The notes beneath the pieces were generated by a model. The model did not search any database and was not told the origin of the DNA. It saw only the letters and a list, made by a program, of their open reading frames with translations. A DNA stretch of 64,000 bases from a virus. Its lineage: Duplodnaviria; Heunggongvirae; Uroviricota; Caudoviricetes. Each line of letters opens with the position of its first letter. The stretch's first letter is position 1. Location of the stretch: positions 18,847 through 82,846 of IMG/VR virus record IMGVR_UViG_3300032954_000003; one strand, written 5' to 3'. Positions 826 through 42,063 of this stretch are shown piece after piece. A program made the position numbers and the translations under genes.

Positions 826-1224
826 ATGGACGTTGATCCTGCCCTAGACCGGCGCATCCTGAATCTACGGATCGCAGGCGGAGGCATTACCGGCCTTGCC
901 GATCAGTTCGGCCTCACCGATCAAGAGGTGCTAGACGCGTGCAAGCGAGCCCTAGATGCGATGGAAGCGCGCGAACCTATTGCTCAGGTCCGAGACCTTG
1001 AACTAGCGCGAATCGACCTCTGCCTTCGAGCGGTCATCCCGCTTGCTCTCCAAGGCAATCTCACGGCAGCGCGCACAGCTCGTGAATTCATGCAGGATCG
1101 CCGCGACATTTACGGGCTGGATAATCTACGGCCGAAACCTGAAAGTGAACATGATCGGCTGGATGCTCTCAATGAGCGACGGCGAACACGTCGCACACGC
1201 GGTATGCCACACGCTAAGAAATAA
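826..1224 (+). CDS. terminase small subunit candidate (HTH DNA-binding)
   Basis: GGAGGGA RBS precedes the ATG at 826. HTH-like segment ILNLRIAGGGITGLADQFGLTDQEV. The stop overlaps the terminase large subunit start (TAATG), a typical terS-terL arrangement. Confidence 0.45.
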   Translation: MDVDPALDRRILNLRIAGGGITGLADQFGLTDQEVLDACKRALDAMEAREPIAQVRDLELARIDLCLRAVIPLALQGNLTAARTAREFMQDRRDIYGLDNLRPKPESEHDRLDALNERRRTRRTRGMPHAKK

Positions 1225-3731
1225 TGCAAGGTAATCAGTTCCCACGCATCAGTTGTTTACCAAAATACAGCTGCTCAGCAGGCGAAGAAGCAGTTGAGCT
1301 ATGTAGCATGATCGGCTTAGAGCTTGATCCCTGGCAACAATTTGTGCTGGAGAACTCGCTGGGTGAGGATGAGGAGGGCAAATGGGCTGCTTTTCAGGTA
1401 GGTTTAGTTGTAGCTCGACAGAACGGAAAGGGGCCTGCAAGTGTCACTACTCCCGTTCTAACGGGAAATGGGTGGACAACACTAGGAGAAGTAGAACCTG
1501 GTGACAGTGTTTACGGTGGAGATGGACGACCTATCAAGGTTGTTGCGTGTTCTGAGGTCTATCTAAATGAGCCGTGTTATGAGGTTACATTTACAGATGG
1601 GGCAAAGCATGTAGTTACGGCCGATCATTTATGGTGGGTAAAACATAAGGACCGGCGCCAGTGGGAAGCAGTTCAGACTGCTGATATCGCGCGAAAGTTT
1701 GCCAGTGAACGTGCAAATGGTCGGATGGAATATCTTTGGCGCGTACGTTGTGACGCAGTGCCAGAAACTCCAGAGGCTGATTTACCGATTCACCCATACA
1801 TCTTAGGGCTATGGTTAGGTGATGGGACTAGTAGGCGACCAGAACTAACCGTCTCAGACGAAGACAGACCGTTTATGCGTGGTGTCTTACAGGCTACAGG
1901 GCATGTAGTTACAAACGAGTCTCTAGGCAATAGAGAGCATGATCCTTGGCATATTGCTTTCCGTCTTGGACCAAAGATGAACAAAGAAGGCTTTCCAGCA
2001 CGACTGCGGTGGCTCAATGTTTATCGAAATAAGCACATTCCGGAGATTTATCTGGCGGCCTCAAAGACTCAAAGATTGGAACTGCTTCGTGGCTTGATGG
2101 ATACAGACGGCTCAGTTGCGACTACGAATAAGTCACCACAAGTTGAATTTTCGACATCCAGTGAGGCTCTTGCACTTGGTTTTCAACGTCTGGTAAGAAG
2201 TCTTGGTATTCGAGTCACACCGAAACGACGCAAGACAACGCACAAAGATAACTGGCGTTTCCTATGGACCCCGACTTTCAACCCGTTTAGATTGCCACGT
2301 AAGGCTACGAAATACAAGGCACCTCTGTCTAAACGTCAAGAGTTGATGAGTGTTATTGATGTGCAACCTGTTTCCTCAGTTCCGACACGCTGCATTCAAG
2401 TAGACAGTGAGGATGGTGTTTATCTACTTGGGCACCATTTCACCCCTACACACAACTGTGTGCTCCAGGCGCGTGAGCTTGCAGGCTTGTTTCTAGATTC
2501 ACTTAGTGAACGATTCATGCTTCATAGCGCACATCGTTACGACACAAGCCAAGAGCATTTCCACCGCTTAGTCCAACGTATTGAAGGTTCAGAAGAATTT
2601 AGCAAGCGTGTAAAGCGGATCTCGCGTTCGCATAATGAAGAAGGCATTACTATGTTGGATGGACGCCAACTTCGTTTCCGCGCTAGAACGTCCGTAGGCG
2701 GTCTCGGTTTCACCATCGACACTTTGGTATGCGATGAGGCTCAAATCCTGCCACAGAGCTTCCTAGCAGCTCTCCTGCCTACTCTCAGTGCCAGACCGAA
2801 CCCTCAGATATGGTTTGCAGGTACAGCAGCTGACCAAGAGCGCCACGAAGATGCCATTGTTCTAGCTACTCTAAGAGAGCAAGCACAAAGAGGTGACACT
2901 CAGAGTGTTTGCTACATGGAGTGGTCATTCGACTCAGATCATCCGCTCAAGGTTACACCGACACAATCGCTTGACCCTGAGGTCTGGGCACAAGCAAATC
3001 CCTCAATGGGGATTCGCATAGCCGATAGCTACATCGGCAAAGAGCGCGAGGCACTAGCACCGCGAGACTTTGCTGTTGAACGTTTGGGTGTAGGTGACTG
3101 GCCACGCACTGACGGACTAGAGGGTGTCATGATTACACCCGAAGCATGGGCCGCATGTACGGATGAGGCGTCTCAGATCGTCGGTCCTGTATGCTTTGCA
3201 GTTGACGTGACTCCCGATCGTTCTTATACAGCTATCGCTGTCGGCGGATTCCGTGAGGACGGTAAGACTCACGTTGAGATCGTGGAGCACAAACGTGGCA
3301 CAGGCTGGGTTGTGAAGCGGCTCGATGAATTACTTACAAATCATCGAGGCGTAGCGATCTGTGATGCTACTGGGCCTGTGGCTTCGTTGTTGCCAGAGCT
3401 AAAGGAGCAAAGACCATACGAAGAACCAGTGCTTCTCAGCTCACGTGAGCAAGCTCAAGCTTGTGGGTACATCTATGATGCTGTAGAGCAGGATACAATT
3501 CGGCATATAGGGCAAAGGGAGCTTTCAGATGCCATACGCGTTGCTGTAAGCCGTCCTCTCGGGGATGCATGGGCTTGGTCTAGGCGTAACGCTACAGGCG
3601 ATATTTCACCGCTTGTAGCGGCCACAATGGCACTATGGGGGACGCAAACATTAGAGATAAACGAACCAGCAGTAATCGACACGGCGGCTATAGAAGAACG
3701 TATGCGTCAGGAAGGTACGCTGGTAACCTAG
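1224..3731 (+). CDS. terL: terminase large subunit, interrupted by an intein
   Basis: P-loop VVARQNGKG, Walker B LVCDEAQ, and C-terminal RNaseH-like nuclease aspartates (AVDVTPDRSYTAIAV). The roughly 340-aa insert has Hint blocks and two LAGLIDADG motifs. Confidence 0.85.
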   Translation: MQGNQFPRISCLPKYSCSAGEEAVELCSMIGLELDPWQQFVLENSLGEDEEGKWAAFQVGLVVARQNGKGPASVTTPVLTGNGWTTLGEVEPGDSVYGGDGRPIKVVACSEVYLNEPCYEVTFTDGAKHVVTADHLWWVKHKDRRQWEAVQTADIARKFASERANGRMEYLWRVRCDAVPETPEADLPIHPYILGLWLGDGTSRRPELTVSDEDRPFMRGVLQATGHVVTNESLGNREHDPWHIAFRLGPKMNKEGFPARLRWLNVYRNKHIPEIYLAASKTQRLELLRGLMDTDGSVATTNKSPQVEFSTSSEALALGFQRLVRSLGIRVTPKRRKTTHKDNWRFLWTPTFNPFRLPRKATKYKAPLSKRQELMSVIDVQPVSSVPTRCIQVDSEDGVYLLGHHFTPTHNCVLQARELAGLFLDSLSERFMLHSAHRYDTSQEHFHRLVQRIEGSEEFSKRVKRISRSHNEEGITMLDGRQLRFRARTSVGGLGFTIDTLVCDEAQILPQSFLAALLPTLSARPNPQIWFAGTAADQERHEDAIVLATLREQAQRGDTQSVCYMEWSFDSDHPLKVTPTQSLDPEVWAQANPSMGIRIADSYIGKEREALAPRDFAVERLGVGDWPRTDGLEGVMITPEAWAACTDEASQIVGPVCFAVDVTPDRSYTAIAVGGFREDGKTHVEIVEHKRGTGWVVKRLDELLTNHRGVAICDATGPVASLLPELKEQRPYEEPVLLSSREQAQACGYIYDAVEQDTIRHIGQRELSDAIRVAVSRPLGDAWAWSRRNATGDISPLVAATMALWGTQTLEINEPAVIDTAAIEERMRQEGTLVT
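1434..2456 (+). other. intein with LAGLIDADG homing endonuclease inside terL
   Basis: Block B VTADHLW, LAGLIDADG motifs LGLWLGDG and LLRGLMDTDG, and C-terminal ...TPTHN followed by Cys+1. The N-terminal boundary is ambiguous (no Cys1; Ser73 or a class-3-like start). Confidence 0.7.
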
Positions 3732-5087: not shown

Positions 5088-5861
5088 TTAGCCGGCTAGA
5101 GACTGTTTTAGATAAGACGCATGAAATTCTAAGTAGTCAGCGAGTGCACGGAGACGTATGGGATCGTCGCCAGCATTGCCCATAGCGGCATTACATTGAT
5201 GACAGAGTAATGCTCGGACGCGATTTGTCTTGTGGCAGTGGTCTACATGTAGGTGTTGGCCCTTGCCACCAGCTTCCTCGTTGGTTCGCTTGCAGACAGC
5301 ACAGACTCCACCTTGCCGCTCTAGCATGTGCTCATATTCTTCGATAGTCATATCGTAGAACTTGCGAAGTGTACGCTTCCGGTTCTTGAGACGACGCTTG
5401 GCTGGATCACTCATGCGTTCCCTATCCCGTACTCGGTCGCAAGTTCGGCAATAAGACTTATGCGAGCCATCGCGTGGCTTCCCACATTTTGTACAGGTGT
5501 AATTTGCAGGTTCGAGCTTCGCTCGGCACGTCGGGCAGAGGTGCTTACTGCGCCGTGGGGCAGTAAGCAGCGGCGCACCACATTCCTTGCAAGTTTGCTC
5601 GCATATCTCACAAAAACTGTTTGAAGCGCCGCGCTTAGGTCGAATGCCACATCGTGCACACAGTTTTGCTCGTTTAGGCCGACAATCATTACATAATGGC
5701 TTGTAGCATCCATTAGCCATTAGTGGTGCAGGTTTGCCGCACTTCCGACACTTGCCGTAGCACTGATCGCATAGCGCATGGTTACTGCTAGAACCATCTC
5801 GCGCGGGCCGTTGTTTGCAACGGCTACAAATCACTCGACGCATCCTTGGGGATTCTAGCAT
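5088..5861 (-). CDS. endonuclease VII-like resolvase with N-terminal array of CxxC zinc-ribbon repeats
   Basis: C-terminal HVDHCH...LLCHQCN is the T4 gp49/endo VII signature. The N-terminus has more than 8 CxxC pairs. The ATG at 5861 has an AGGAG RBS; the track start at 5927 is an upstream extension. Confidence 0.7.
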   Translation of the reverse strand: MLESPRMRRVICSRCKQRPARDGSSSNHALCDQCYGKCRKCGKPAPLMANGCYKPLCNDCRPKRAKLCARCGIRPKRGASNSFCEICEQTCKECGAPLLTAPRRSKHLCPTCRAKLEPANYTCTKCGKPRDGSHKSYCRTCDRVRDRERMSDPAKRRLKNRKRTLRKFYDMTIEEYEHMLERQGGVCAVCKRTNEEAGGKGQHLHVDHCHKTNRVRALLCHQCNAAMGNAGDDPIRLRALADYLEFHASYLKQSLAG

Positions 5862-6121
5862 ATATCTCCTAAGGAATTCAAAGGAGGTGATGCCCGCCCA
5901 TGTCCAGTCATGTCGTTGCAACAACACGCGGAAATATTTCGCTAGAGCAGCGTGGAGCTAGCCCATATCTGGAATGGGGCTAACGCGTGACAGCGCCGCC
6001 GCCTCCCGGGGCAGTTTAGGTTGGAGGTAACATCGGTGGACTTCACGTCACCACTGAATCAGCGACTCAGGTAGCAGCCGTCTATGGCTGTGTATCGCTA
6101 TTAGCTAACTCGATCGCATCT

Positions 6122-8461
6122 TTGCCGATCCGAGTCCTAGACGCACCTCCTGTAGTTTCACTAAACGCCAAAGAAAAGAAGAAGATTCCTCAGCTTCTTC
6201 AGAGTCCCTATGAGCCAATCAGCTTTACTGATTGGATTGTCTGCATGATGTGGTCCCTAGCGCTACGTGGGAACTTCTTTGGACAGATCGTGGAACGTGA
6301 TCGTCTAGGTTATCCAACCCAGATCATGCCGGTCAACCCAGATTTAGTAAAACCCCATCAAGACCCCTCAGGGGTTATTGAATGGCGCTTTGCTGGCAAA
6401 GTAGTACCAACCGAAGATGTTTTTCACATCCGCTATCAGTACATGCCAGGAATGCTCTTAGGATTAAACCCTATCCAAGTCTGCAAGTACAGTTTTGGTT
6501 TAGGCCACGTCCTAGACGTACACGCAGAGACAACCTTCCGCAATAGCGCTAACCCACTAGGTGTTCTCGAAGCTAAGGGAACACCATCGCAGAATGCGGT
6601 TGAACAGATGATCCAGCGCTGGCACTCAATGCACCAAGGAGTGCGTCAGTCCAGTCTGCCGGCAATCCTGACTGAGGAAACGAAATTCAATCCGATCTCA
6701 ATTTCCCCAGAAGATCAACAACTGCTCGAAAGCAGGAAATACTCAGCCGAGGAAATATGTGGCATTGTTTTCCAAGTACCACCATTCATGCTTGGTATGA
6801 CCCAACGCTCAACCTGCCTTGCTGCTGGTACACCTGTGCTGACTGATAAAGGTCCGCGAGCAATTGAGACGATCAAAGCTGGTGAAAGGGTTTGGTCCCT
6901 CGACGAGTCTCAGGCTCGGTTTGTGTTGTCTAAGGTTGTAGCGCAAGAGAAGACTGGCTGTGACCCAATATTAACGATCAAGACGCGCCCTGGCCGTACG
7001 CTACGAGCAAATGCCAAACACAAAGTTCTAGTAAGGCGCAAATTCGCTAATCCACAACGGGGCGTTGGGAAGTATCGCTGTGTAGAGTGGCGCAACATAT
7101 GGACGACAGCGGGCGAGTTAAAGGTGGGTGACTATCTCATCGCCGGGCATGGTCTACCCGCAAGCGACAAGCGCACGGCTCCAAATGGACGAGAGCTAAC
7201 GCCGCAGTTTATGGAGTTCGCGGGGTTACTCATCGGTGATGGCAACGTCATCAAAGGCAACAAAGGTGTACCGGCGGTTGTAACGATTGCGCGTCATCGT
7301 GATGCCCGTTACATGGATGTTTACCGGCGCGGTGCTGAACGCGAGTTCAACGCAACCCATGGCGTTGGTACGGCAACTGAACGTAAGTTATCACCGATTA
7401 GGCTTCGTGAGTATGAGCGTTGCACGACGTTTTCATCCGTTACGGCAGCATCTGAGCTGGCAAGTCTCGGTTTCAGCGGTACAGCACATACAAAGCGTGT
7501 ACCTGAATGGCTGTTTGGCGTTGCGCCTGAGTTGCAACTCGCCTTCTTGCGTGGCTATGCTGACGCTGATGGTTCGGTTACTGAACGCGGAGAACTTATC
7601 TTCTGTTCATGCAACCCAGAGCTATTACAGGATGTGCGTCACCTTTGTATTCAGCTTGGGATTCCTGTAGGTCATCTGTGTGAGCATGATACGGCTGGCA
7701 CAGGGATGGTGATGGGGCGTAAAGTGACGCGTGGGAAGATGTATCGTCTAAATTGTTGCGATGCTGATTCGAACTTGCGCATTGGAACGCATGATTCACA
7801 GGACCTGAAGCGTTTGCAGCGGGCCAAGCGTTCGCCTAGACGCCAATGGTGGGATGCTGATTATCAGGGACGTGGTGGCAGCCCAGAGGCTCGTCCTGGA
7901 ACTTACTTCGACATTGAAGGCGCTCGTCTTCAGTGTATTACATCCATTGAGAAGTCTGCACCAGAGCCCGTGTATGATCTTACAGTCGAAGGTACCCATA
8001 CATTCTTGGCTGATGGTTTGGTTGTTCACAACAGCTACGGCCGTGGTATAGAGCAACAAGAGAGAACCTTTATTGCCAATACCCTCTCTGGATACCTCTG
8101 TCGCGTTGAGAGAGCGCTTACAGAATGCTTACCTGACGGGGAATACGTGAACTTTGACATACGTCACCGAGTCCGTGGCACGGCTGTAGAACGTGCTCAG
8201 CAAGCAAGCCTCCTAATGCTGTGCGGTGCTTGGTGCGCTGATGACTCTAGAGCCTTATTTGATATGCCTCCACTACCAAACGGAGAAGGCAAAATCTTCA
8301 ATACACCACTCAACACTGAGCTGCTTGAGAAGGCGCTTCTCGAAGTCAAGCAGATGGAAAAAGAAGAAGATGAACCAGAAGCGCCACCTCAGAACCCACA
8401 GTTTATGCCGGTTCCGGGTGGCGGTAGGGGTCCAAAAGCTCCTGCTGTTCCTAGGAGTTAG
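6122..8461 (+). CDS. portal protein (HK97-family-like) interrupted by an intein; true N-terminus probably upstream of 6122
   Basis: Portal-like segments flank a 406-aa insert with Hint blocks and LAGLIDADG motifs. The conserved portal N-terminal motif (AAVYGCVSLLANSIASLP) lies in-frame upstream of the TTG at 6122. Confidence 0.8.
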   Translation: MPIRVLDAPPVVSLNAKEKKKIPQLLQSPYEPISFTDWIVCMMWSLALRGNFFGQIVERDRLGYPTQIMPVNPDLVKPHQDPSGVIEWRFAGKVVPTEDVFHIRYQYMPGMLLGLNPIQVCKYSFGLGHVLDVHAETTFRNSANPLGVLEAKGTPSQNAVEQMIQRWHSMHQGVRQSSLPAILTEETKFNPISISPEDQQLLESRKYSAEEICGIVFQVPPFMLGMTQRSTCLAAGTPVLTDKGPRAIETIKAGERVWSLDESQARFVLSKVVAQEKTGCDPILTIKTRPGRTLRANAKHKVLVRRKFANPQRGVGKYRCVEWRNIWTTAGELKVGDYLIAGHGLPASDKRTAPNGRELTPQFMEFAGLLIGDGNVIKGNKGVPAVVTIARHRDARYMDVYRRGAEREFNATHGVGTATERKLSPIRLREYERCTTFSSVTAASELASLGFSGTAHTKRVPEWLFGVAPELQLAFLRGYADADGSVTERGELIFCSCNPELLQDVRHLCIQLGIPVGHLCEHDTAGTGMVMGRKVTRGKMYRLNCCDADSNLRIGTHDSQDLKRLQRAKRSPRRQWWDADYQGRGGSPEARPGTYFDIEGARLQCITSIEKSAPEPVYDLTVEGTHTFLADGLVVHNSYGRGIEQQERTFIANTLSGYLCRVERALTECLPDGEYVNFDIRHRVRGTAVERAQQASLLMLCGAWCADDSRALFDMPPLPNGEGKIFNTPLNTELLEKALLEVKQMEKEEDEPEAPPQNPQFMPVPGGGRGPKAPAVPRS
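6815..8032 (+). other. intein with LAGLIDADG homing endonuclease inside the portal gene
   Basis: Starts with Cys (STCLAAGTPVLT). Block B TLRANAKH, LAGLIDADG motifs FAGLLIGDGN and FLRGYADADGS. Ends VYDLTVEGTHTFLADGLVVHN followed by Ser+1. Confidence 0.8.
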
Positions 8462-8640: not shown

Positions 8641-8641
8641 A

Positions 8642-8716
8642 TGGACCTGAAGAGATTCGAACTCTTATCCTCCTCGGTGCAAACGAGGCGCTCTACCAAT
8701 TAGGAGCTACAGGCCC
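8642..8716 (-). tRNA. tRNA-Ala (anticodon TGC)
   Basis: Hand-folded cloverleaf. G3:U70 identity pair, anticodon loop TTTGCAC, TTCGAAT T-loop, discriminator A. Confidence 0.75.
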
Positions 8717-8718
8717 AA

Positions 8719-8790
8719 AGGCGGCGGTGGGATTCGAACCCACGTTGAACAGCTTTGCAGGCCGTTACGTATCCATTCCGTCACGCCGCC
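8719..8790 (-). tRNA. tRNA-Cys (anticodon GCA)
   Basis: Acceptor GGCGGCG pairs with CGCCGCC, anticodon loop CTGCAAA, discriminator U. Confidence 0.7.
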
Positions 8791-8800
8791 GTTAGCGAGT

Positions 8801-8989
8801 CTAGCACGCTTCGAGTCGATATTGCAAGCGTATACACTCGTACAAGTCACCCTCACCCATGACCTCACCAGTCATGCCTCTTACGACGTACCATTTACCT
8901 CGGGTCTTCTTAGTGGGCCCAGAGATTACACGATACTCGCATGGTGGTGCGTGTAGTACATAACTATCATCGGGCATGCGTAATCTCAT
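8801..8989 (-). CDS. hypothetical small protein (62 aa); ATG begins 2 nt after the tRNA-Val(TAC) 3' end
   Basis: ORF MRLRMPDD...; no room for an RBS, so it would be leaderless after tRNA processing. The longer track ORF 8801..9139 overlaps the tRNA and is rejected. Confidence 0.3.
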   Translation of the reverse strand: MRLRMPDDSYVLHAPPCEYRVISGPTKKTRGKWYVVRGMTGEVMGEGDLYECIRLQYRLEAC

Positions 8990-8991
8990 AG

Positions 8992-9064
8992 TGGACGATT
9001 CAGGGATCGAACCTGAGACCTCTGCTTTGTAAGAGCAGTGCTCTACCTGCTGAGCTAATCGTCC
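8992..9064 (-). tRNA. tRNA-Val (anticodon TAC)
   Basis: Cloverleaf GGACGAT...ATCGTCC, anticodon loop CTTACAA, T-loop TTCGATC. Confidence 0.75.
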
Positions 9065-9369
9065 GTGGGTGCTGGCTTCCAGCTTACGATAGCACCTAGC
9101 CGTACGTACACAAAACCATCCAACACTGAAATACCCCAACCGTCGTCATATGCGATTACGCACCCTGGTTTGAGCTTATCCTCTAAACCGCCGTTCCAAG
9201 GATCGAATGCGTATGGCAACTCTCCTACTGCGAGAACAATAGCTGTACGGAGTGTTCGAGTACGTATTAGAGGTGACGGCTGTTGGTCGTCTGGTATCTC
9301 GGTCGGCAATGGAATTGCTACCAGAAAACCCGCCATTGGTTGCATTGGTGGCTCTGTATTTACATCCAT
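9055..9369 (-). CDS. hypothetical protein (104 aa); ATG begins 4 nt after the tRNA-Met 3' end
   Basis: Protein-like composition (GCVIAYDDGWGISVLDGFVYV). The last 3 codons overlap the 5' end of tRNA-Val(TAC). Confidence 0.35.
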   Translation of the reverse strand: MDVNTEPPMQPMAGFLVAIPLPTEIPDDQQPSPLIRTRTLRTAIVLAVGELPYAFDPWNGGLEDKLKPGCVIAYDDGWGISVLDGFVYVRLGAIVSWKPAPTDD

Positions 9370-9373
9370 GAGA

Positions 9374-9445
9374 TGGGCGGTCTTGGATTCGAACCAAGGT
9401 CCAACACGTTATGAGCATGCGGCTCTACCCCTGAGCTAACCGCCC
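9374..9445 (-). tRNA. tRNA-Met (anticodon CAT; elongator or Ile-lysidine type not distinguishable)
   Basis: Acceptor GGGCGGT pairs with ACCGCCC (G1-C72, so not an initiator). Anticodon loop CTCATAA. Confidence 0.7.
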
Positions 9446-9603
9446 CTATATATGTCACGCTGTCTAAAGTTAGCACTACATCCGTAGCGGTTACATCTTG
9501 CGTAAATGTAGCCGTGGCGCTCCAGAAAGCGCCAATTATGGCCTACAACGTAGCACCTGCTATGGCTCCACGCAAGTCTAATGTAATGAACTATTGCCAA
9601 GAG

Positions 9604-9675
9604 TGGGCGATGGTGGATTCGAACCACCGACCCCTACGTTGTCACCGTAGTGCTCTCCCGCTGAGCTAATCGCCC
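9604..9675 (-). tRNA. tRNA-Val (anticodon GAC)
   Basis: Cloverleaf GGGCGAT...ATCGCCC, anticodon loop GTGACAA. Confidence 0.65.
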
Positions 9676-9769
9676 GTGGTATTGCGCCACGCATTCGTTG
9701 CAATAGCACCTGCTACAAAGCTTAGCGTGAGCAGATGATCTACATCAATGCGGTTACTTGTTATGGTTT

Positions 9770-9952
9770 CTACCTCTTTATGGTTTCTACCTCTTGTGCC
9801 GCCTCAGCTAACATTGTACCGGCTATCTGGGCGCACTTGTGCACTTCACCACTAGGTAGCCCAGCTTCGGACAAGTCCCTATCAAGGGTACTCTCTGGAT
9901 GCTTGACTAGTCTTTCGAAGATCCGTCTAAAACACTGATGGTAACTGTCCAT
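9770..9952 (-). CDS. hypothetical small protein (60 aa); ATG begins 2 nt after the tRNA-Ile 3' end
   Basis: ORF MDSYHQCFRRIFERLVKH...; it contains a 17-bp tandem duplication. Confidence 0.3.
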   Translation of the reverse strand: MDSYHQCFRRIFERLVKHPESTLDRDLSEAGLPSGEVHKCAQIAGTMLAEAAQEVETIKR

Positions 9953-9955
9953 AAT

Positions 9956-10030
9956 GGGCGATGAAGGAATTGAACCTTCGACCTTTTCCTTATCAGAGAA
10001 ACGCTCTAACCAAACTGAGCTAATCGCCCA
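9956..10030 (-). tRNA. tRNA-Ile (anticodon GAT)
   Basis: Cloverleaf GGGCGAT...ATCGCCC, anticodon loop CTGATAA, T-loop TTCAATT. Confidence 0.75.
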
Positions 10031-10032
10031 AC

Positions 10033-10105
10033 GCGCCTGGGCGGATTCGAACCGCCGATCTCATGCTCCGGAGGCATGCGCTCTTTCCTCTAAGCTACAG
10101 GCGCA
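10033..10105 (-). tRNA. tRNA-Arg (anticodon CCG)
   Basis: Acceptor GCGCCTG pairs with CAGGCGC, anticodon loop CTCCGGA, discriminator G. Confidence 0.7.
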
Positions 10106-10181
10106 GGTGTGTTGGTCAGTCTAGAACCGTTTTGGGAGGTCTAGTCAAGTAGAGAAGTGCTGTCAAGGGTAGACGAGTCAA

Positions 10182-10254
10182 TGGGACGTCAGGGATTTGA
10201 ACCCCTGGTCGGCCGGTTAAGAGCCGGCTACTCTACCAATTGAGTTAACGTCCC
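10182..10254 (-). tRNA. tRNA-Lys (anticodon CTT)
   Basis: Acceptor GGGACGT pairs with ACGTCCC, anticodon loop CTCTTAA, T-loop TTCAAAT. Confidence 0.75.
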
Positions 10255-12010: not shown

Positions 12011-12808
12011 GTGTCGCAGGTTGAGAGAACATGCAAGTGTGAGGGCTGCACCCGCAATTGTGTGGCAAAGGACTTGTGTAGTTTGCACTATCAGCGATTA
12101 TCTCGCTATGGAAGCACGGAATTGCCGCAACGGGTCATCATCTGTCGTATCGCTCAATGTGGACGTCCCGCAAAAGCGAAGGGTTTGTGTGCCGCACATT
12201 ATCAGCGACAAAGAGAAGGGCGAATAGTCGATTCGCCAGTTAAGGCCAAGAAGGAGAGACTCGCTACCTGCAAGGTTATTGGGTGTCAACGTAAAGCTGC
12301 TGCACGCGACTTATGCAAGGCTCATTACAGGCGGTGGACCAAAAGCGGTGACGTTGAAGCAAATAGACCGATTGCATTAAAGCAGAAGCAACCCTCTGTA
12401 TTTTGCAAGGTAGAAGGGTGTCAGCGAAAGAGTTCATCACACAATGGCTATTGCAAGATGCACGGTTATCGAATAAGACGCTATGGCAATCCTGGCTCTG
12501 TTTATCCGCTACACGCACAAAAGGGAACTGGCACTGTGCGCGATGGCTACAGGTTTATGAGCATTCAAAGCGAGAATGGTTCCCGTCTGCGCGTAGCTGA
12601 GCATCGTCTAGTTATGGAAGCATTTCTAAATAGACCACTGCGACCGTTTGAGACAGTTCATCATATCAACGGTATTCGGGATGACAACCGTATAGAGAAT
12701 CTCGAATTATGGACTCATGGTCATCCTCGTGGTCAACGACCAGAGGACTTGGTGGCGTGGGTTGTTGAGCAGTATCCCGAGTTAGTGCGAGCAGCGCTGA
12801 ATCCTTAG
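12011..12808 (+). CDS. HNH homing endonuclease with four N-terminal Cys/His zinc-binding repeats
   Basis: C-terminal AEHRLVME...VHHINGIRDDNRIENLELW is the HNH_3-type motif. Four repeats of CxGCxR....LCxxHYxR. GTG start with a GAGGT RBS. Confidence 0.75.
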   Translation: MSQVERTCKCEGCTRNCVAKDLCSLHYQRLSRYGSTELPQRVIICRIAQCGRPAKAKGLCAAHYQRQREGRIVDSPVKAKKERLATCKVIGCQRKAAARDLCKAHYRRWTKSGDVEANRPIALKQKQPSVFCKVEGCQRKSSSHNGYCKMHGYRIRRYGNPGSVYPLHAQKGTGTVRDGYRFMSIQSENGSRLRVAEHRLVMEAFLNRPLRPFETVHHINGIRDDNRIENLELWTHGHPRGQRPEDLVAWVVEQYPELVRAALNP

Positions 12809-12836: not shown

Positions 12837-13394
12837 ATGAGGCAGCCGTACGATCCGGCCTTTTACAACACTGCCGAATGGCGCACTTTCCGTAAGCACA
12901 AGTTGCTTAGCGTGGGCTTTCATTGTGAGCGGTGTGACGCAGACTTGCGTTCTGTACCAGCGGAGGTACACCATGTCATTTATGAGCGATTTGGCGGGGA
13001 AGAGCGTCTTGCTGATGTTGAAGCGCTTTGTAGCCGTTGTCACGATGAGGTTGAGCTAGTGAAGGCTGGTGACAAAGCGATTCGTGCCCAGCTAGAAATA
13101 GACAGCAAGATTCAACGTGCCACTGAATTAGACGTGCGAGCTGACGAATTACGGCATGAAATAAGAGAGAATCTTGACATCTTAGAACGCGAAGCTGAAA
13201 AGAAACAGCGCATTGGACTGGATGTGTTTATCAGGCATCTTCTAGAACAAGAAGTTGCAGGGCGCCAAGTTTTGGGGATGGGAGGCTTGCCAGCCCCTAG
13301 CCAAGAGTTACTTGAACAGATGCTTGAACGTACACATCGCGCACGAGAACTTTTAGTCGAGAAATACTCTCCTCCTGCTAGTGAAGCAGCCTAA
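12837..13394 (+). CDS. HNH endonuclease with C-terminal coiled coil
   Basis: HCERC...EVHHVIYERFGGEE...CSRCH pattern (H-N-H with two CxxC pairs). GGAGGA RBS. Confidence 0.7.
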   Translation: MRQPYDPAFYNTAEWRTFRKHKLLSVGFHCERCDADLRSVPAEVHHVIYERFGGEERLADVEALCSRCHDEVELVKAGDKAIRAQLEIDSKIQRATELDVRADELRHEIRENLDILEREAEKKQRIGLDVFIRHLLEQEVAGRQVLGMGGLPAPSQELLEQMLERTHRARELLVEKYSPPASEAA

Positions 13395-17096: not shown

Positions 17097-18830
17097 ATGC
17101 CAGAGACAGTAACGCTGCTCGACGAGCTGCGCCAGCGTCGTGAGACCATCGGAAAGAATTGGGATGATCTCATTGATAGGCGTGAGACTGAACGAGCTGA
17201 GTACGAGAAACGTACTGCTGACTTCAAGTCATTGAAGGATGAGTTCGAAGCTAAGGACAGTCCAACTGACGAGGAGCGCGATGCGTTCAAGGCAGCCGAA
17301 AAGGCGCATATGGTTACAACCGATGCGTACAACTTGGCTGAGGACGAGTTCCGCTCCGCATGCGAAGACTTCGAATCGGATCTTGGTCCTCTCAATGATC
17401 GAATCAAGCGTCAAGAGGAGAAGGCGGAACGTCGTGCGGCTGCTGAGAAGGCGGCAATTAGCGATGACTCCGACCCTGCTGGCAGTCTTCATGTCACAGA
17501 GCCTTACACGTACCGCAAAGACAATGCTAATGACTATTCCTTCTACAAGGATATGCTTTCAACGGAGCCATCGATCCGAGGTCTAGTCTCCGGTATCCGT
17601 GGCTTCAACTACCAGGAAGCTAGAGAACGCATCGACCGTCACTCAGAAGAGATGAATGACGTTATGAAGAAGCGCGATGCGGAACGGATCAAAGCTGCTG
17701 AACAGCAGGTTGATGAAGCAGAGATGCAGTTCCGGTCAAGCTTCCCCACTGGGATGCTAAAGGCGGATCTCCGTGGTGCGCTGGAAGACAATCCCTTCGA
17801 ACGCCGTGCTAACCCTTCCCGTGTCGCGGGCCAGGGTGGCGAATTCGTTCCGCCCTTGTGGCTAGTCGAGGATGACTGGATTCCGTTCCTACGTGCCGGC
17901 CGTGTTATCGCACCTCTGTGCCGTAATATGCCCGTCCCGCCAGGTACGGATACGATCAAACTCCCGAAGGTGAAACTTGGTACCGAAGTTGCACCCCAGT
18001 TGATGGACAATGCTGGCGTTGCATCACGCGATATCGAAACAACTTTCGTAGAAGCTGCCGTCAAGACACTTGCCGGTCAGGAGGATGTTGCCATCCAGCT
18101 GATCGAGCAGTCACCGGGTCAGGTATTTGACACGGTAGTCCAGACGGATCTTCTTGCTGACTACAACCTGAAGGTAGACCGTAACGTCTCCTTCGGTGAA
18201 GGTCTGAACGTTACCCAGCTAAACGCCGGTACGATCAAGGGTCTGTACCCAACGACAAACTGGGAAGGTAAGAAGAACGAATCAACCTCAGCAGCTACAG
18301 GGCAAACGTTCCTAGCTTCCTTGAACTGCAACTGGTCATGGATTGCCAAGGAACGTTTCAACGTCCAGAACGTTCACCACGTTATCCATCCGCGTCGTGG
18401 TGCATGGGCTGCGTCAGTAACAGATTCATCCTCAGAAGCAGGGCGGTTGCTGTTCAATGCAACAGACTTCCCTAACTTCAACACGGCAGGTTTGTTCACC
18501 GGCCAAACACCGGCCGAGGGGTATGCGTTTACGACACCGCTTGGACCGAATGTCTACATTACGGCGAACATCTCAACCGAAGATAACGGGAAAGGTGAAA
18601 AAAAATCAGGTGAAAGCCACGATTACGCTCTGACTGCAAAGTTTGATGATGTGTGGTTCTTTGAGTCTGATCTTCGTACACGCGTACTCCCTGAGGTCGT
18701 ATCTGGCACGCTCCAGATTCGCTTCCAGGTGTATGCATACGTGGCGCTGTTGGTTCGTTACGGCCCGTCTATCGCAATTGCGGTAGGGAAAACATTCGAA
18801 GAACCCAAACTGGGTGGCTTCACCTTCTAA
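17097..18830 (+). CDS. capsid protein paralog 2 (HK97 fold) with about 220-aa N-terminal coiled-coil extension
   Basis: AAAGGAGGGG RBS precedes the ATG at 17097. GQGGEFVPPLWL, PGTDTIKLPKV and C-terminal SGTLQIRFQVYAYVALLV align with 14794..15975. Confidence 0.65.
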   Translation: MPETVTLLDELRQRRETIGKNWDDLIDRRETERAEYEKRTADFKSLKDEFEAKDSPTDEERDAFKAAEKAHMVTTDAYNLAEDEFRSACEDFESDLGPLNDRIKRQEEKAERRAAAEKAAISDDSDPAGSLHVTEPYTYRKDNANDYSFYKDMLSTEPSIRGLVSGIRGFNYQEARERIDRHSEEMNDVMKKRDAERIKAAEQQVDEAEMQFRSSFPTGMLKADLRGALEDNPFERRANPSRVAGQGGEFVPPLWLVEDDWIPFLRAGRVIAPLCRNMPVPPGTDTIKLPKVKLGTEVAPQLMDNAGVASRDIETTFVEAAVKTLAGQEDVAIQLIEQSPGQVFDTVVQTDLLADYNLKVDRNVSFGEGLNVTQLNAGTIKGLYPTTNWEGKKNESTSAATGQTFLASLNCNWSWIAKERFNVQNVHHVIHPRRGAWAASVTDSSSEAGRLLFNATDFPNFNTAGLFTGQTPAEGYAFTTPLGPNVYITANISTEDNGKGEKKSGESHDYALTAKFDDVWFFESDLRTRVLPEVVSGTLQIRFQVYAYVALLVRYGPSIAIAVGKTFEEPKLGGFTF

Positions 18831-39282: not shown

Positions 39283-39346
39283 AAGTTCCTCCGCGATTAT
39301 CAGTAAACAACGCTTTGGTACGGAAACGGTAGTATAGCGATTATCG

Positions 39347-39715
39347 ATGGGCTATAGCGATCCGCAACGGCAGCGCGAGTATCAGCGAGAGTGGGTGGCT
39401 AAACGTCGCGCGGAATATTTTGCTGACAAGTCGTGCGTTGTCTGCGGTAATACCAATGACCTTCAGCTTCACCACCTCGATCCAGCGCAAAAGATCAGTC
39501 ACAACATTTGGGGTTGGCGACGTGAGCGCATGGAAGCCGAGATAGCCAAGTGTGAGGTTCGCTGTTCCGCTTGTCATCGCAAACACCACTATGTATTATG
39601 GCGTAAGCACGGCATCGGCACTTATATGAAGAAGGGTTGTCGCTGCTTTATCTGTTATAGAGCAAAGGCAGCAGCGACACGACGTGAAACTCGATACGGA
39701 GGCGGCGCGAGTTGA
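39347..39715 (+). CDS. HNH endonuclease (small)
   Basis: CVVCGNTNDLQLHHLDP...CSACHRKHH pattern. Confidence 0.65.
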   Translation: MGYSDPQRQREYQREWVAKRRAEYFADKSCVVCGNTNDLQLHHLDPAQKISHNIWGWRRERMEAEIAKCEVRCSACHRKHHYVLWRKHGIGTYMKKGCRCFICYRAKAAATRRETRYGGGAS

Positions 39716-39794
39716 ACGCGCAGACCGCCGCTAAGGACGGCCACGAGGTTTAGCAAACCCGCTGGCGCACCACATGCCCAGCACCTCCAAGCTT

Positions 39795-40124
39795 TCAAAA
39801 CCCCACCTTCTTTTTCTTAGTAGAAGGCTTGGGTGGTGCTTGTAGTATACGACCTAAGGCGCTCTCAAACACCATGAAGTCTCTGTCTTCCTCACTGAGG
39901 AGCGGAGTGGGCTGATGACCACCCTTGCGCCTTGGGCGAAGTATTTCATTGAGTCTGTTAGGCGAGAGCCCCGCCTCCTTTGCAATCTCCTCAGGATCGA
40001 CACCAGCATCACGAGCCTCAATGCACCTTTCCGACAAGTCCTTGAGTGCTTCCATCTGCGCTCGCACAGCTTGAGCCCGTTTCCATGCTGCGCTACGGAC
40101 TGCCTCAAGAGTGTCCTTGGTCAT
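39795..40124 (-). CDS. HTH DNA-binding protein; ATG starts 1 nt after the tRNA-Asn 3' end
   Basis: HTH EIAKEAGLSPNRLNEIL. No space for an RBS between the tRNA and the ATG. Confidence 0.45.
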   Translation of the reverse strand: MTKDTLEAVRSAAWKRAQAVRAQMEALKDLSERCIEARDAGVDPEEIAKEAGLSPNRLNEILRPRRKGGHQPTPLLSEEDRDFMVFESALGRILQAPPKPSTKKKKVGF

Positions 40125-40125
40125 A

Positions 40126-40197
40126 CTGGCAACCTGGGATTCGAACCCAGAACCGTTCGGTTAACAGCCGAGCGCTCTGCCATTGAGCTAGTTGCCA
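40126..40197 (-). tRNA. tRNA-Asn (anticodon GTT)
   Basis: Acceptor TGGCAAC pairs with GTTGCCA, anticodon loop CTGTTAA, discriminator G. Confidence 0.7.
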
Positions 40198-40324
40198 TTT
40201 TGTTCTAATTTTTGGTCGGTTCACCGCGCCGACGCTTCAGGATAGCGCCTAGCAGTGATTCCGAATGATCCCATTTACCAAACAGATACTTCCAAATCAT
40301 TGACCACTCCTTTGTAGTGTCTAG

Positions 40325-40396
40325 AACGGGTGGCGAGGATCGAACTCGCTCTTAGAGCTTGGAAAGCTCTCGTGCTGCCAAGTACACCTCACCCGC
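40325..40396 (-). tRNA. tRNA-Gly (anticodon TCC), atypical A8 and G1.U72
   Basis: Cloverleaf with anticodon loop TTTCCAA and T-loop TTCGATC. Position 8 is A and 1-72 is a G.U pair. Confidence 0.5.
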
Positions 40397-40538
40397 GAAG
40401 AAATTGCCGTCGCCTAGAGCTGCCGCTTCAGCTCTAATTGACGGACTTGCCCTATTGGTTTATAGAAGGGCTATACATGCCTATTTCGGCCTCACGCGAG
40501 CGGTGCGGCATATTAGCTGTAGCTGCTTTTCGCGTTAG

Positions 40539-40628
40539 CGGAAAGCGGAGGAGTCGAACCCCTGCCTCGTCTTAGGAGACAACTGGTTTTCAAGACCAGC
40601 GCCGAGACCGACCTCGGCCGCACTTTCC
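40539..40628 (-). tRNA. tRNA-Ser (anticodon TGA), type II
   Basis: Anticodon stem-loop CTGGT-CTTGAAA-ACCAG, long variable arm GTCTCCTAAGAC, discriminator G; 90 nt. Confidence 0.65.
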
Positions 40629-40770
40629 ATATGTGCGGATTACCCCAACCCTTCGGCTTTCCGCAAGCTCGGTCACCTACCGAGTTCCCTCAGATAAGAG
40701 ATGAAATGTCACTCCCCGCATAACGCAACACTTCATTCCGCGCGGGTTAGCGGACCCTACCCTTATCCTA

Positions 40771-40843
40771 AGTGCACGGTGGGATTTGAACCCACGGCCT
40801 TCACGTTGGCAACGTGACGCTCTACCAGCTGAGCTACGCACAC
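40771..40843 (-). tRNA. tRNA-Gly (anticodon GCC)
   Basis: Acceptor GTGTGCG pairs with CGTGCAC, anticodon loop TTGCCAA, discriminator U. Confidence 0.65.
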
Positions 40844-41140
40844 ATAAGCGTTGCCTACACGACAAGCCTCTCAGGTACATCCGGTTTGCTTGTCCCGTTT
40901 TGTCCTTCAGGAACTAACCCATCCGTAAGCGCCTATCTGTACTTAGCGCAACCTCGGCAACGCAATAACGACTATAGCGTATCTAGCCGGCTCGTGCAAG
41001 CAGCGTGGATGCTGACAACTTAGTAGCTGGTGCTTCTTTGGACTTAGACATAGACATCAACGATACAGTAGACCGTCCTTCTTGGGGTGGACTGAATTCA
41101 GCAAAGTCATAAGCAAGCTCGGGCTTTGCTAAGTCCTTGC

Positions 41141-41353
41141 CTAGAAAGGGCGCACCACAACCTGGCAGCGGTCTAGCTTTGCTTGATCGGCAACAATCTC
41201 GTCCGGAATCGCACGAGCTGCGATCATTTGCGCCTTACCCTCATCGCGTGCCAAGATGCGTGTTACATCGACGACAAGCTTGGCCTCTTCAGTGACTTCA
41301 CCATCCTTGTCTGTTTTCTCGTCAAGAATAACGGCGTACTCGAAAATCTCCAT
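41141..41353 (-). CDS. hypothetical small acidic protein (70 aa)
   Basis: GAAAGGAAC RBS precedes the ATG. Confidence 0.5.
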   Translation of the reverse strand: MEIFEYAVILDEKTDKDGEVTEEAKLVVDVTRILARDEGKAQMIAARAIPDEIVADQAKLDRCQVVVRPF

Positions 41354-42033: not shown

Positions 42034-42063
42034 TCTCTCACCTTGGTTTACTTGGTTACCGGA

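What the first reader, a model, noticed from the sequence alone, without database searches (positions are those of the whole stretch)
6815..8032. Second intein (class-1, LAGLIDADG) in the portal protein
A 406-aa insert starts with Cys (STC|LAAGTPVLT) and has block B (TLRANAKH) and two LAGLIDADG motifs. It ends VYDLTVEGTHTFLADGLVVHN|S. With it removed the portal is about 373 aa, normal for the HK97 family. Two intein-bearing packaging genes sit within 7 kb, alongside five free-standing HNH genes and an endonuclease VII. This indicates an exceptionally high homing-element load.
Basis: seen in the sequence. Interest (0 to 1): 0.5.

Follow-up and report, generated by a model that had tools for sequence, protein, structure and literature searches.

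The report
Homing intein inside a phage portal gene
The 406-residue insert is a genuine self-splicing, endonuclease-carrying intein in the most conserved loop of a phage portal protein, which is an ordinary kind of element, but the same gene also carries two in-frame stop codons near its start that recur in related phages and point to unconventional translation.

Summary
Window 6815-8032 encodes a 406-aa class-1 intein (Cys1 ... His-Asn|Ser+1) with a two-motif LAGLIDADG endonuclease, inserted in an HK97-family portal gene. HMMs pass their thresholds. The AF2 model (pLDDT 92.7) matches the TliVMA intein, PI-SceI and PI-PfuI. The closest relatives (up to 67% identical) read ERST|SFGRGIEQQ straight across an empty site.

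The site equals HK97 gp3 T309|S310, in the loop before the long wing helix (probably the tunnel loop). About 50 metagenomic portal clusters carry related inteins at three offset positions in this motif. No deposited phage does. Portal inteins are already published, so this is a new member of a known kind.

- The mature portal is about 443 aa, not 373.
- I confirm three HNH genes plus endonuclease VII, not five.

The unexpected result lies upstream. The portal starts at ATG 5900 and contains two 6-nt insertions that each begin with a stop (TAA 5981, TAG 6017). Eight of nine phages carrying the same divergent endonuclease-VII gene upstream have such an insert, and no relative without that gene does. 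The codon before the stop usually matches the last codon of the insert, and post-stop codons evolve synonymously. This suggests a T4 gene 60/MobA-like bypass cassette, which remains untested.

The parts
6815..8032 (+). Intein, 406 aa, class 1, with an embedded double-motif LAGLIDADG homing endonuclease
   Evidence: Pfam and NCBIfam hits. The AF2 model has pLDDT 92.7 and pTM 0.91. Foldseek top hits are the TliVMA intein 7qsu, PI-SceI 1vde and PI-PfuI 1dq3. The segment is absent from the closest portal homologs.
6815..6844 (+). Intein block A (CLAAGTPVLT), with Cys1 as the first nucleophile
   Evidence: Read directly from the sequence. C1 is invariant in 22 relatives.
6992..7033 (+). Intein block B (GRTLRANAKHKVLV), with His69 invariant and Asn66 in place of the usual Thr
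7208..7249 (+). LAGLIDADG motif 1 (FMEFAGLLIGDGNV), with the acidic residue Asp142
   Evidence: G141, D142 and G143 are (nearly) invariant in the family.
7538..7579 (+). LAGLIDADG motif 2 (LAFLRGYADADGSV), with Asp250 and Asp252
   Evidence: Pfam LAGLIDADG_3 matches aa 239-283. D252 and G253 are invariant.
7964..8032 (+). Intein blocks F and G (EPVYDLTVEGTHTFLA DGLVVHN), with Asp388, His405 and Asn406
   Evidence: TIGR01443 matches aa 385-406. N406 is invariant and H405 nearly so.
6023..6814 (+). Portal N-extein (main body), ending ...PPFMLGMTQRST
   Evidence: Pfam Phage_portal E=3.7e-59 and TIGR01537 at 145 bits against a cut-off of 112. About 61-67% identical to intein-less homologs.
8033..8461 (+). 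Portal C-extein (SYGRGIEQQERTF... to the TAG stop), with Ser+1 as the splice acceptor
   Evidence: It aligns to homolog residues directly following ...ERST.
5900..5980 (+). True 5' end of the portal gene (MSSHVVATTRGNISLEQRGASPYLEWG), preceded by the SD AAGGAGGTG at 5881-5889
   Evidence: It is in frame with the body and homologous to the N-termini of L005 (MSGHVLAT...PYLEWG), P0012 and P0013.
5981..5986 (+). Micro-insertion 1, TAACGC (in-frame TAA + CGC). The flanking codons are GGC before and GTG after.
   Evidence: It is a 6-nt insertion relative to L005 and L002 at both DNA and protein level.
5987..6016 (+). Portal codons between the two stops (VTAPPPPGAV), conserved with homologs
6017..6022 (+). 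Micro-insertion 2, TAGGTT (in-frame TAG + GTT). The preceding codon is also GTT, giving GTT TAG GTT.
5088..5927 (-). Endonuclease VII-family gene with an N-terminal array of CxxC zinc ribbons, divergent from and abutting the portal start. It is a candidate free-standing homing endonuclease.
   Evidence: Pfam Endonuclease_7 E=6.8e-22. Homologs occupy the same position next to portal genes in 8 other phage contigs.
1224..3731 (+). Large terminase carrying the 'first' intein (about 1431-2453, roughly 341 aa, LAGLIDADG type). This is context only.
   Evidence: Pfam LAGLIDADG_3 E=1e-13 and Hom_end E=2e-8. The relative L002 has a 512-aa terminase that lacks the insert after ...RQNGK.

Best explanation
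Window 6815-8032 is a mobile class-1 intein that interrupts the portal gene of an uncultured HK97-like tailed phage. The contig is 108.8 kb, and the nearest cultured relatives of the portal are cluster J mycobacteriophages.

The portal is made as a precursor. The intein's Hint domain then removes itself by the standard four steps:
1. An N-S acyl shift at Cys1.
2. Transfer of the N-extein to the side chain of Ser+1.
3. Cyclisation of Asn406, assisted by His405.
4. An O-N shift that joins ...MTQRST to SYGRGIEQQ...

This restores the family's most conserved motif. That motif lies in the loop just before the long wing helix, which is most likely the channel-lining tunnel loop. An unspliced subunit should therefore be unable to form a working portal.

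The released intein is a two-motif LAGLIDADG endonuclease. During co-infection it is expected to cut the intein-less allele at the DNA encoding ERST|S(F/W/Y)GxGIEQQ, and to be copied in by recombinational repair (homing).

Shown here: the sequence anatomy, the fold, precise insertion relative to empty-site relatives, and sporadic distribution. Inferred: that splicing and DNA cleavage are currently active.
For: - **HMM hits.** Intein_splicing, LAGLIDADG_3 and TIGR01443 score above their cut-offs, and Phage_portal and TIGR01537 cover the flanks.
- **Catalytic residues.** All canonical residues are present and are invariant or nearly invariant in 22 relatives: C1, H69, D142, D252, D388, H405 and N406, plus Ser+1.
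- **Fold.** The AF2 model has pLDDT 92.7 and pTM 0.91. The best solved matches are all full-length homing inteins: TliVMA 7qsu at E=3e-19, PI-SceI and PI-PfuI.
- **Empty sites.** P0012, P0013, P0017, P0019, L005-7, L010, L011 and L097 read ...ERSTSFGRGIEQQ... with no insert.
- **Host protein.** The spliced extein models as an HK97-type portal. A profile of A1 matches the HK97 portal 8cez at E=3e-94, and the site aligns to T309|S310 of EKSTSWGSGIEQQ.
- **Sporadic distribution.** On the extein tree the window is the only intein-bearing member of its clade. The next outgroup, P0002, has a 66%-identical intein at the same site.
- **Recent mobility.** Related inteins (35-66% identical) sit at three offset positions in the same motif. 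Relatives at 46% identity occur in large terminases.
Against: - No activity data exist, and the phage is uncultured.
- Block B has Asn rather than Thr at B:7.
- The host gene cannot be translated conventionally because of two upstream in-frame stops. If these are inactivating, the intein sits in a dead gene.
- No near-identical strain with an empty site was found, so homing polymorphism is shown only between phages with at most 67% portal identity.
- Assigning the site to the tunnel loop rests on topology and a medium-confidence model (pLDDT below 50 at residues 263-268). It is not based on a residue-level structural superposition.
Confidence: 0.9

Rival explanations
1. The intein still splices, but its endonuclease no longer homes. 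It would be a domesticated or decaying element that persists only because its loss must be exact.
For: Within the window's own clade it is the only intein-bearing member, and no near-identical empty-site strain was recovered. Inteins commonly outlive their endonuclease activity (established knowledge).
Against: Both LAGLIDADG acidic residues, the conserved Lys227 and the full two-domain fold are intact and conserved across the family. The family occupies several sites and two host genes, which implies recent mobility.
Confidence: 0.25
2. The portal gene is a recently inactivated pseudogene, shown by its two in-frame stops, and the intein is a passenger in a dead phage or a defective element.
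For: TAA at 5981 and TAG at 6017 interrupt the frame. The first canonical in-frame start after them is TTG 6122, which would delete a conserved N-terminal helix. No suppressor tRNA was found in about 84 kb of the contig.
Against: The 2.4 kb after the stops is open and conserved, and every other structural gene compared is intact. Similar stop-first inserts recur at the same place in 7 other phage contigs from independent assemblies. In L010 versus L011, codons after the stop show 11 synonymous and 1 non-synonymous difference, although L010 has no canonical start until codon 57.
Confidence: 0.08
3. The segment is not an intein but a lineage-specific portal domain, or an assembly chimera.
For: None beyond the a priori possibility for a single metagenomic contig.
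Against: HMMs, catalytic residues, fold and exact in-frame excision all point to an intein. About 50 independent clusters show the same architecture. GC content of the intein (0.525) is close to that of the exteins (0.487 and 0.514).
Confidence: 0.01

Closest known systems
Published actinobacteriophage portal inteins (Kelley et al. 2016, PMC5050341: 6 in cluster C1 mycobacteriophages; bioRxiv 10.1101/2025.01.02.630785: portal inteins in five polyphyletic groups)
   Same: These are self-splicing inteins in phage portal genes, many with LAGLIDADG endonucleases. They occur in phages that also carry terminase inteins.
   Different: None is detectably related to this intein. A tblastn of the intein against 50,697 phage records found 7 hits, none in a portal and none in Mycobacterium phages; the best was a Gordonia BearBQ tape-measure intein at 28.6%. 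The 2025 survey files its portal exteins under InterPro IPR009279. I could not verify whether that entry covers PF04860/TIGR01537 portals. The nearest cultured portals (cluster J, about 35% identity) are intein-less.
PI-SceI, TliVMA, PI-PfuI and PI-TkoII (solved full-length homing inteins)
   Same: They share the architecture of a Hint splicing domain interrupted by a double-motif LAGLIDADG endonuclease, and the same catalytic residue set. TM scores are 0.55-0.69.
   Different: Sequence identity is 14-19%. The host proteins differ (V-ATPase, RNR and polymerase rather than portal). The +1 residue here is Ser rather than Cys.
Metagenomic PF04860 portal inteins (P0002-P0054), apparently undescribed
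   Same: They belong to the same intein family (35-66% identity) in the same portal motif. P0002 and P0003 use exactly the same site.
   Different: Other members sit 2 residues upstream (xR|ST...) or 3 residues downstream (SWG|TGIEQ, or ATF|SNIEQQ). P0037 and P0040 are in terminase large subunits.
T4 gene 60 coding gap plus the MobA homing endonuclease (Manning & Atkins, bioRxiv 10.1101/2022.08.31.505936). This is the comparator for the upstream stops, not for the intein.
   Same: A free-standing endonuclease gene lies next to an essential gene. That gene carries a non-coding insert which begins with a stop directly after a 'take-off' codon and ends at a matching 'landing' codon. In T4 the insert blocks self-cleavage by MobA. 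The endonuclease is sometimes pseudogenised while the insert is kept, as in L109.
   Different: The gaps are 6-12 nt rather than 50 nt. The endonuclease is of the endonuclease VII family on the opposite strand, not MobA. No stem-loop signal was detected. The target is a portal rather than a topoisomerase. Bypassing is inferred here and has not been demonstrated.

Membership tests
Class 1 intein | Cys, Ser or Thr nucleophile at intein position 1 | tested here: met
   Cys1 (TGC, 6815-6817) is invariant in 22 relatives.
Class 1 intein | Block B histidine (the TxxH motif) | tested here: met
   His69 is invariant. The Thr position is Asn66 (N-A-K-H), a tolerated variant.
Class 1 intein | C-terminal His-Asn followed by a Cys, Ser or Thr at +1 | tested here: met
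   The sequence is ...VVHN|S. N406 is invariant, H405 is nearly invariant, and Ser+1 is conserved as the Ser of ERSTS in empty-site homologs.
Class 1 intein | Hint fold | tested here: met
   The AF2 model has pLDDT 92.7. Foldseek hits include full-length inteins and mini-inteins (NpuDnaB, Ssp DnaB, Mtu RecA). A phmmer search matches the NpuDnaB intein 4o1r at E=8e-10.
Class 1 intein | Removal restores a contiguous, conserved host protein | tested here: met
   The spliced junction MTQRST-SYGRGIEQQ aligns without a gap to ERSTSFGRGIEQQ of 8 or more intein-less homologs.
Class 1 intein | Protein splicing actually occurs | not testable with these tools
   This needs expression with Western blot or mass spectrometry.
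LAGLIDADG homing endonuclease (monomeric, two-motif) | Two LAGLIDADG helices, each ending in an acidic residue | tested here: met
   The motifs are GLLIGDG (D142) and YADADG (D250 and D252). Pfam LAGLIDADG_3 scores E=1.9e-10.
LAGLIDADG homing endonuclease (monomeric, two-motif) | Site-specific cleavage of the intein-less allele | not testable with these tools
   Candidate target sequences are listed.
HK97-family portal protein (PF04860 / TIGR01537) | Profile match above the curated cut-off on both exteins | tested here: met
   PF04860 scores 201 bits (cut-off 39.1) and TIGR01537 scores 145 bits (cut-off 112).
HK97-family portal protein (PF04860 / TIGR01537) | Portal fold | tested here: met
   Foldseek top hits are phiXa 9lbn and the HK97 portals 8cez and 8fql, at E of about 1e-19. 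The extein model is only medium confidence (pLDDT 73).
Programmed translational bypass (T4 gene 60 type), for the upstream stops | An in-frame stop immediately 3' of the take-off codon | tested here: met
   All 9 inserts begin with TAA, TAG or TGA.
Programmed translational bypass (T4 gene 60 type), for the upstream stops | Matched take-off and landing codons | tested here: inconclusive
   Three matches are perfect (GTT/GTT in the window, GGC/GGC in L010 and L011). Five match at 2 of 3 positions and one at 1 of 3. At least 2 of 3 match in 7 of 8 independent cases, against a chance rate of 0.156 per case, giving P of about 1.6e-5.
Programmed translational bypass (T4 gene 60 type), for the upstream stops | Coding constraint continues in frame beyond the gap | tested here: met
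   Homology runs through both stops. L010 versus L011 shows 11 synonymous and 1 non-synonymous change after the stop.
Programmed translational bypass (T4 gene 60 type), for the upstream stops | A stimulatory take-off stem-loop | tested here: not met
   Folding 5960-6060 gives a z-score of +0.72 against shuffled sequences.
Programmed translational bypass (T4 gene 60 type), for the upstream stops | A protein product lacking the gap-encoded residues | not testable with these tools
   This needs LC-MS/MS of the junction peptide, or reporter assays.

The most novel reading that the evidence does not exclude
The portal gene that hosts the intein is also the target of a second, undescribed mobile cassette. 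The cassette is an endonuclease VII-family homing endonuclease gene inserted divergently just upstream, together with 6-12-nt 'stop-first' micro-insertions in the portal's 5' coding region.

On this reading the micro-insertions destroy the endonuclease's own target site. Ribosomes skip them by short-range hopping: the peptidyl-tRNA leaves the codon before the stop and re-pairs with the near-identical last codon of the insert, as in GTT-TAG-GTT or GGC-TGA-CCC-GGC. The window would then carry two such hops in series. This would be a natural, recurrent family of short translational bypass sites, and a second example of the T4 gene 60/MobA logic.
Probability: 0.35. Interest if true: 0.8.

Novelty: new member of a known kind. 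Interest (0 to 1): 0.5.

Why it matters
On its own the intein is one more phage intein. It does, however, anchor a sizeable family that seems to be uncatalogued. About 50 metagenomic clusters of HK97-type portals carry related inteins, all within a five-residue stretch of the loop that probably lines the DNA channel. No deposited phage has one. The same intein lineage sits at three offset sites and in terminases, which makes a compact natural data set for studying how inteins change insertion sites.

The upstream stops matter more. If confirmed, they would show that phages repeatedly tolerate stop-containing inserts in an essential gene through recoding. They would also tie that recoding to protection from a neighbouring homing endonuclease. 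Efficient translational bypassing has so far been documented mainly for the T4 gene 60/MobA element. The stops are also a practical warning. Gene callers truncated this portal to 738 aa (P0001) and its relatives to 393-405 aa, so such genes are systematically mis-annotated.

Tried and rejected
- **Genome-wide stop-codon reassignment: rejected.** Terminase, protease, capsid and five other genes align to the proteins of L002 with no in-frame stops. Only the portal has them.
- **Phage suppressor tRNA: not found.** There is none among the 21 tRNAs of the window, nor in 10 kb upstream or 10 kb downstream. About 25 kb of the contig could not be reached.
- **RNA structure or a known RNA family at the stops: nothing found.** The fold z-score is +0.72, and Rfam at gathering thresholds finds only tRNAs.
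- **Re-initiation after the stops: unlikely.** The window has no ATG, GTG or TTG between TAG 6017 and TTG 6122. L010 has none until codon 57, yet the intervening codons are under purifying selection.
- **Assembly artefact: rejected.** Eight contigs from different studies and assemblers show the feature.
- **A generic property of endonuclease VII genes: rejected.** Of 80 IMG/VR endoVII loci, only 3 lie near a PF04860 portal, and none has this arrangement or the stops.
- **Cultured examples: none.** There is no megablast match to phage records. No subfamily endoVII occurs in deposited phages. No prophage copy was found in GTDB genomes.
- **A near-identical strain with an empty intein site: none found.** The closest is 67% identical.
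- **Compositional sign of recent transfer of the intein: none.** GC is 0.525 against 0.49-0.51 for the exteins.
- **Residue-level definition of the HK97 tunnel loop from the literature: not found.** The papers I could read do not give it.
Full report
**1. The observation**

The + strand ORF listed as 6122..8461 continues upstream in the same frame. Within it, nucleotides 6815-8032 encode 406 residues. They begin with Cys (CLAAGTPVLT) and end ...THTFLADGLVVHN, followed by Ser.

- Pfam finds Intein_splicing (E=1.1e-13, 51.7 bits against a cut-off of 35.8) and LAGLIDADG_3 (E=1.9e-10) in the insert. It finds Phage_portal (E=3.7e-59) on the flanks.
- NCBIfam finds TIGR01537 portal_HK97 (145 bits against 112). 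It also finds intein_Cterm (35.3 against 15.6) and intein_Nterm (24.4 against 24.5).

The coordinates and every quoted motif are correct. Block B is N-A-K-H rather than T-x-x-H, but its His69 is invariant in the family.

**2. It is an insertion, not a portal domain**

A search of the large protein collection returned close intein-less portals (P0012, P0013, P0017 and P0019; 447-457 aa; about 60% identity). They read ...NERSTSFGRGIEQQERGF... exactly where the window reads ...TQRST|intein|SYGRGIEQQERTF....

- The closest relatives of all are three IMG/VR contigs (L005-L007) at 67% identity. They also lack the insert.
- DNA of seven empty sites is listed.
- A related contig, L002, has an intein-less terminase (512 aa) and an intein-less portal (447 aa) followed directly by protease and capsid genes. 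In the window the terminase carries a LAGLIDADG insert of about 341 aa after ...RQNGK, so the 'two intein-bearing packaging genes' statement holds.

**3. Fold**

An AF2 model of the intein, built with 21 relatives, is very confident (pLDDT 92.7, pTM 0.91).

- Its 16 best solved matches are full-length homing inteins: the TliVMA intein 7qsu and 7qss, PI-SceI, PI-PfuI, the PhoVMA intein and PI-TkoII. Mini-inteins and free LAGLIDADG enzymes follow.
- Invariant or nearly invariant positions are C1, H69, G141, D142, G143, K227, D250, D252, G253, D388, H405 and N406. This is the full catalytic complement for splicing and for a two-motif LAGLIDADG nuclease.

**4. Where it sits in the portal**

A profile of intein-less homologs matches the HK97 portal (8cez/8fql) at E=3.3e-94. 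It aligns the junction to T309|S310 of HK97 gp3 within EKSTSWGSGIEQQ.

- The spliced extein models as an HK97-type portal (pLDDT 73; Foldseek top hits 9lbn, 8cez and 8fql).
- The junction (T265|S266 of the model) lies in a low-confidence loop (residues 263-268). That loop comes after the clip and stem segments and immediately before the longest helix (271-296).
- In portal proteins, the loop joining the stem to the long kinked wing helix is the tunnel loop, which forms the narrowest part of the DNA channel (PMC10276861). I therefore infer a tunnel-loop location, but I did not do a residue-level superposition.
- This is also the most conserved stretch of the family alignment, as is typical for intein sites.

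**5. The wider family**

About 50 clusters of PF04860 portals in metagenomes carry related inteins. Mapping their junctions gives these positions in the same motif:

| Site | Junction | Clusters |
|---|---|---|
| b | xR\|ST(SWG/NNN) | 5 |
| a (the window's site) | xxT\|S(W/F/Y)G | 12, counting the window |
| c/d | SWG\|(T/S)GIEQ, and its equivalent ATF\|SNIEQQ | 28 |

- In a neighbour-joining tree of the inteins, clades largely follow site. Two terminase inteins (P0037 and P0040, 46% identical, junction ...|SWD) nest inside the site-a clade. That tree has no support values.
- On the extein tree, intein presence is patchy. The window is the only intein-bearing member of its clade, and the next outgroup, P0002, has a 66%-identical intein at the same site.
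- These patterns are what a mobile element produces.

**6. What is known**

Portal inteins are already published for actinobacteriophages (PMC5050341; bioRxiv 10.1101/2025.01.02.630785).

- None of the 50,697 deposited phage records has a detectable relative of this intein in a portal. The best hit anywhere is a tape-measure intein at 28.6%.
- The nearest cultured portals (cluster J mycobacteriophages, about 35% identity) are intein-less.
- Hence this is a new member of a known kind.

**7.

- Removing the intein leaves 407 aa from the codon after TAG 6017, or 443 aa from the real start. It does not leave 373 aa.
- Pfam confirms endonuclease VII (5088-5927) and three HNH genes (12011-12808, 12837-13394, 56184-56687). 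A fourth candidate (39338-39712) has an HNH-like motif but no hit.

**8. The unexpected part: the portal frame is broken upstream**

Homologs align through two in-frame stops:

- Window: MSSHVVATTRGNISLEQRGASPYLEWG*RVTAPPPPGAV*VGGNIGGLHVTTESATQ
- L005: MSGHVLATRGGDVELRGANPYLEWG--VTAPPPPGSV--GGSIGGLHVTTESATQ

Details of the region:

- The start is ATG 5900, ten bases after a strong SD (AAGGAGGTG, 5881-5889).
- At DNA level the stops are the first codons of two exact 6-nt insertions, GGC[TAACGC]GTG and GTT[TAGGTT]GGA (A2).
- The next canonical in-frame start is TTG 6122, which would remove a conserved, confidently modelled helix.
- No other gene compared has such stops. No suppressor tRNA was found in about 84 kb of the contig.

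**9. The stops recur and track a neighbouring endonuclease gene**

The ORF abutting the portal start on the opposite strand (5088-5927) is an endonuclease VII-family protein with an N-terminal array of CxxC ribbons. Its subfamily homologs lie in the same divergent position next to a portal gene in every contig I could inspect: L008/L009, L010, L011, L104/L105, L106, L107, L108 and L109.

Eight of the nine distinct phages, counting the window, carry a stop-first insert within the same 15-codon stretch of the portal's 5' region:

| Locus | Sequence around the insert | Protein context |
|---|---|---|
| Window, insert 1 | GGC[TAACGC]GTG | LEWG*RVTA |
| Window, insert 2 | GTT[TAGGTT]GGA | GAV*VGG |
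| L010 | GGC TGA CCC GGC AGT | LEWG*PGSTA |
| L011 | GGC TGA TCC GGC TCA | LEWG*SGSTA |
| L008/L009 | CCG TAA CTG TGG | LP*LWG |
| L107 | TAC TGA GGG TCC ATC | SSY*GSIPTN |
| L108 | TCT TGA CGA AGA TTT TAT | SS*RRFYIPTN |
| L109 | CCG TAG CCT ACG | VPP*PTN |
| L106 | ATT[TAGGTGAGGTC]CCC | 11-nt insert that also shifts the frame |

- L104/L105 have the endonuclease gene but an intact portal start.
- In L109 the endonuclease gene itself is frameshifted.
- None of the relatives without the endonuclease has a stop. These are L002/L094/L095, L005-7/L103, L097, L100, P0012, P0017, P0019, P0002 and P0003.
- The arrangement is not generic to endonuclease VII genes. It is absent from cultured phages and from GTDB genomes.

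**10. Evidence that ribosomes pass the stops**

- L010 and L011 are 91% identical in DNA. In codons 26-60, after the stop, they differ at 11 synonymous sites and 1 non-synonymous site. L010 has no canonical start before codon 57. That region is therefore under protein-level selection.
- In 7 of 8 independent inserts, the last codon of the insert matches the codon before the stop at two or more of three positions. Three matches are perfect. The chance rate is 0.156 per case, giving P of about 1.6e-5. This is the take-off/landing signature of ribosome hopping.
- The 11-nt insert in L106 cannot be rescued by simple readthrough.
- Against a gene 60-like mechanism, no stimulatory hairpin is evident, and two serial low-efficiency events would be costly.
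- The closest precedent is T4 gene 60. Its 50-nt gap is part of the MobA homing-endonuclease element and blocks self-cleavage (bioRxiv 10.1101/2022.08.31.505936).
- I rate the cassette-plus-bypass reading at about 0.35. Readthrough, non-canonical re-initiation and a packaging-related (non-selfish) role for the endonuclease remain open.

**11. Verdict**

The intein call is right and ordinary in kind. The portal gene as a whole is not ordinary. It is hit by an intein, by a neighbouring endonuclease gene, and by two stop-bearing micro-insertions that appear to need recoding.

Noticed in passing
window 5981-5986 and 6017-6022 (+): Two 6-nt insertions, each starting with an in-frame stop (TAACGC and TAGGTT), lie in the conserved 5' end of the portal gene. 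Homology to intact relatives runs straight through them. The second forms GTT-TAG-GTT, a classic hop context.
   Followed up: yes
window 5088-5927 (-); L008 5001-5939, L010 1144-1914, L011 5001-5777, L104 1406-1993, L106 446-997, L107 733-1464, L108 711-1376, L109 about 2501-3044: An endonuclease VII-family gene with N-terminal CxxC ribbons always sits divergently against a portal start. In 8 of 9 phages the adjacent portal 5' region has a stop-first micro-insertion. L104/L105 do not have one. In L109 the endonuclease gene is frameshifted.
   Followed up: partly
P0002-P0054; P0037, P0040: One intein family occupies three offset positions within five residues of the portal ERSTSWGxGIEQQ motif. 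Close relatives at 46% identity occur in terminase large subunits at ...|SWD. This suggests site sliding and jumps between genes.
   Followed up: partly
window about 1431-2453 (+), inside the terminase 1224-3731: The terminase intein starts with Gly or Pro rather than Cys, Ser or Thr. It has Trp in block B (DHLWW) and Cys in block F (TRCIQVD), and it ends HN|C. That looks like a class 3 intein inserted in the Walker A region (RQNGK|). The class was not tested.
   Followed up: partly
window 8641-10254 (-) and 39696-43798 (-): There are 21 tRNA genes in two clusters on the minus strand. The first cluster is wedged between the portal and the prohead protease, where the relative L002 has no spacer at all. 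The region 8.5-13.4 kb also holds two HNH genes.
   Followed up: no
window 17106-18821 (+): A second, longer capsid-like gene is 26% identical to the major capsid protein of L002. It is orthologous to L002 6748-8442, which has a faint Phage_capsid hit.
   Followed up: no
L003 5307-6991 (upstream of the window on the same contig): Adjacent Ku and ATP-dependent DNA ligase genes form a phage-encoded NHEJ pair, as in mycobacteriophages Omega and Corndog. This may be relevant to the origin of small insertions at endonuclease cut sites.
   Followed up: no
L004 13156-15107 (downstream of the window on the same contig): A Ro60/TROVE + vWA gene is preceded by two tRNA-Met-like genes. This may be a phage Ro60 and Y-RNA-like module.
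   Followed up: no
window 55687-55923 (+) and 52679-54283 (-): A 78-aa ORF has a Pfam Ribosom_S12_S23 hit, and a 535-aa ORF encodes an RCC1/WD40-repeat protein. Both annotations come from precomputed records only.
   Followed up: no
upstream of the portal starts: window 5870-5899, L010, L011, L106, L109: The SD and spacer GGAGGTGATGCC..CCCATGTC is shared by the endonuclease-bearing phages. L010 and L109 also share TATAGCATT just upstream. The endonuclease cassette may therefore bring its own portal 5' UTR.
   Followed up: no
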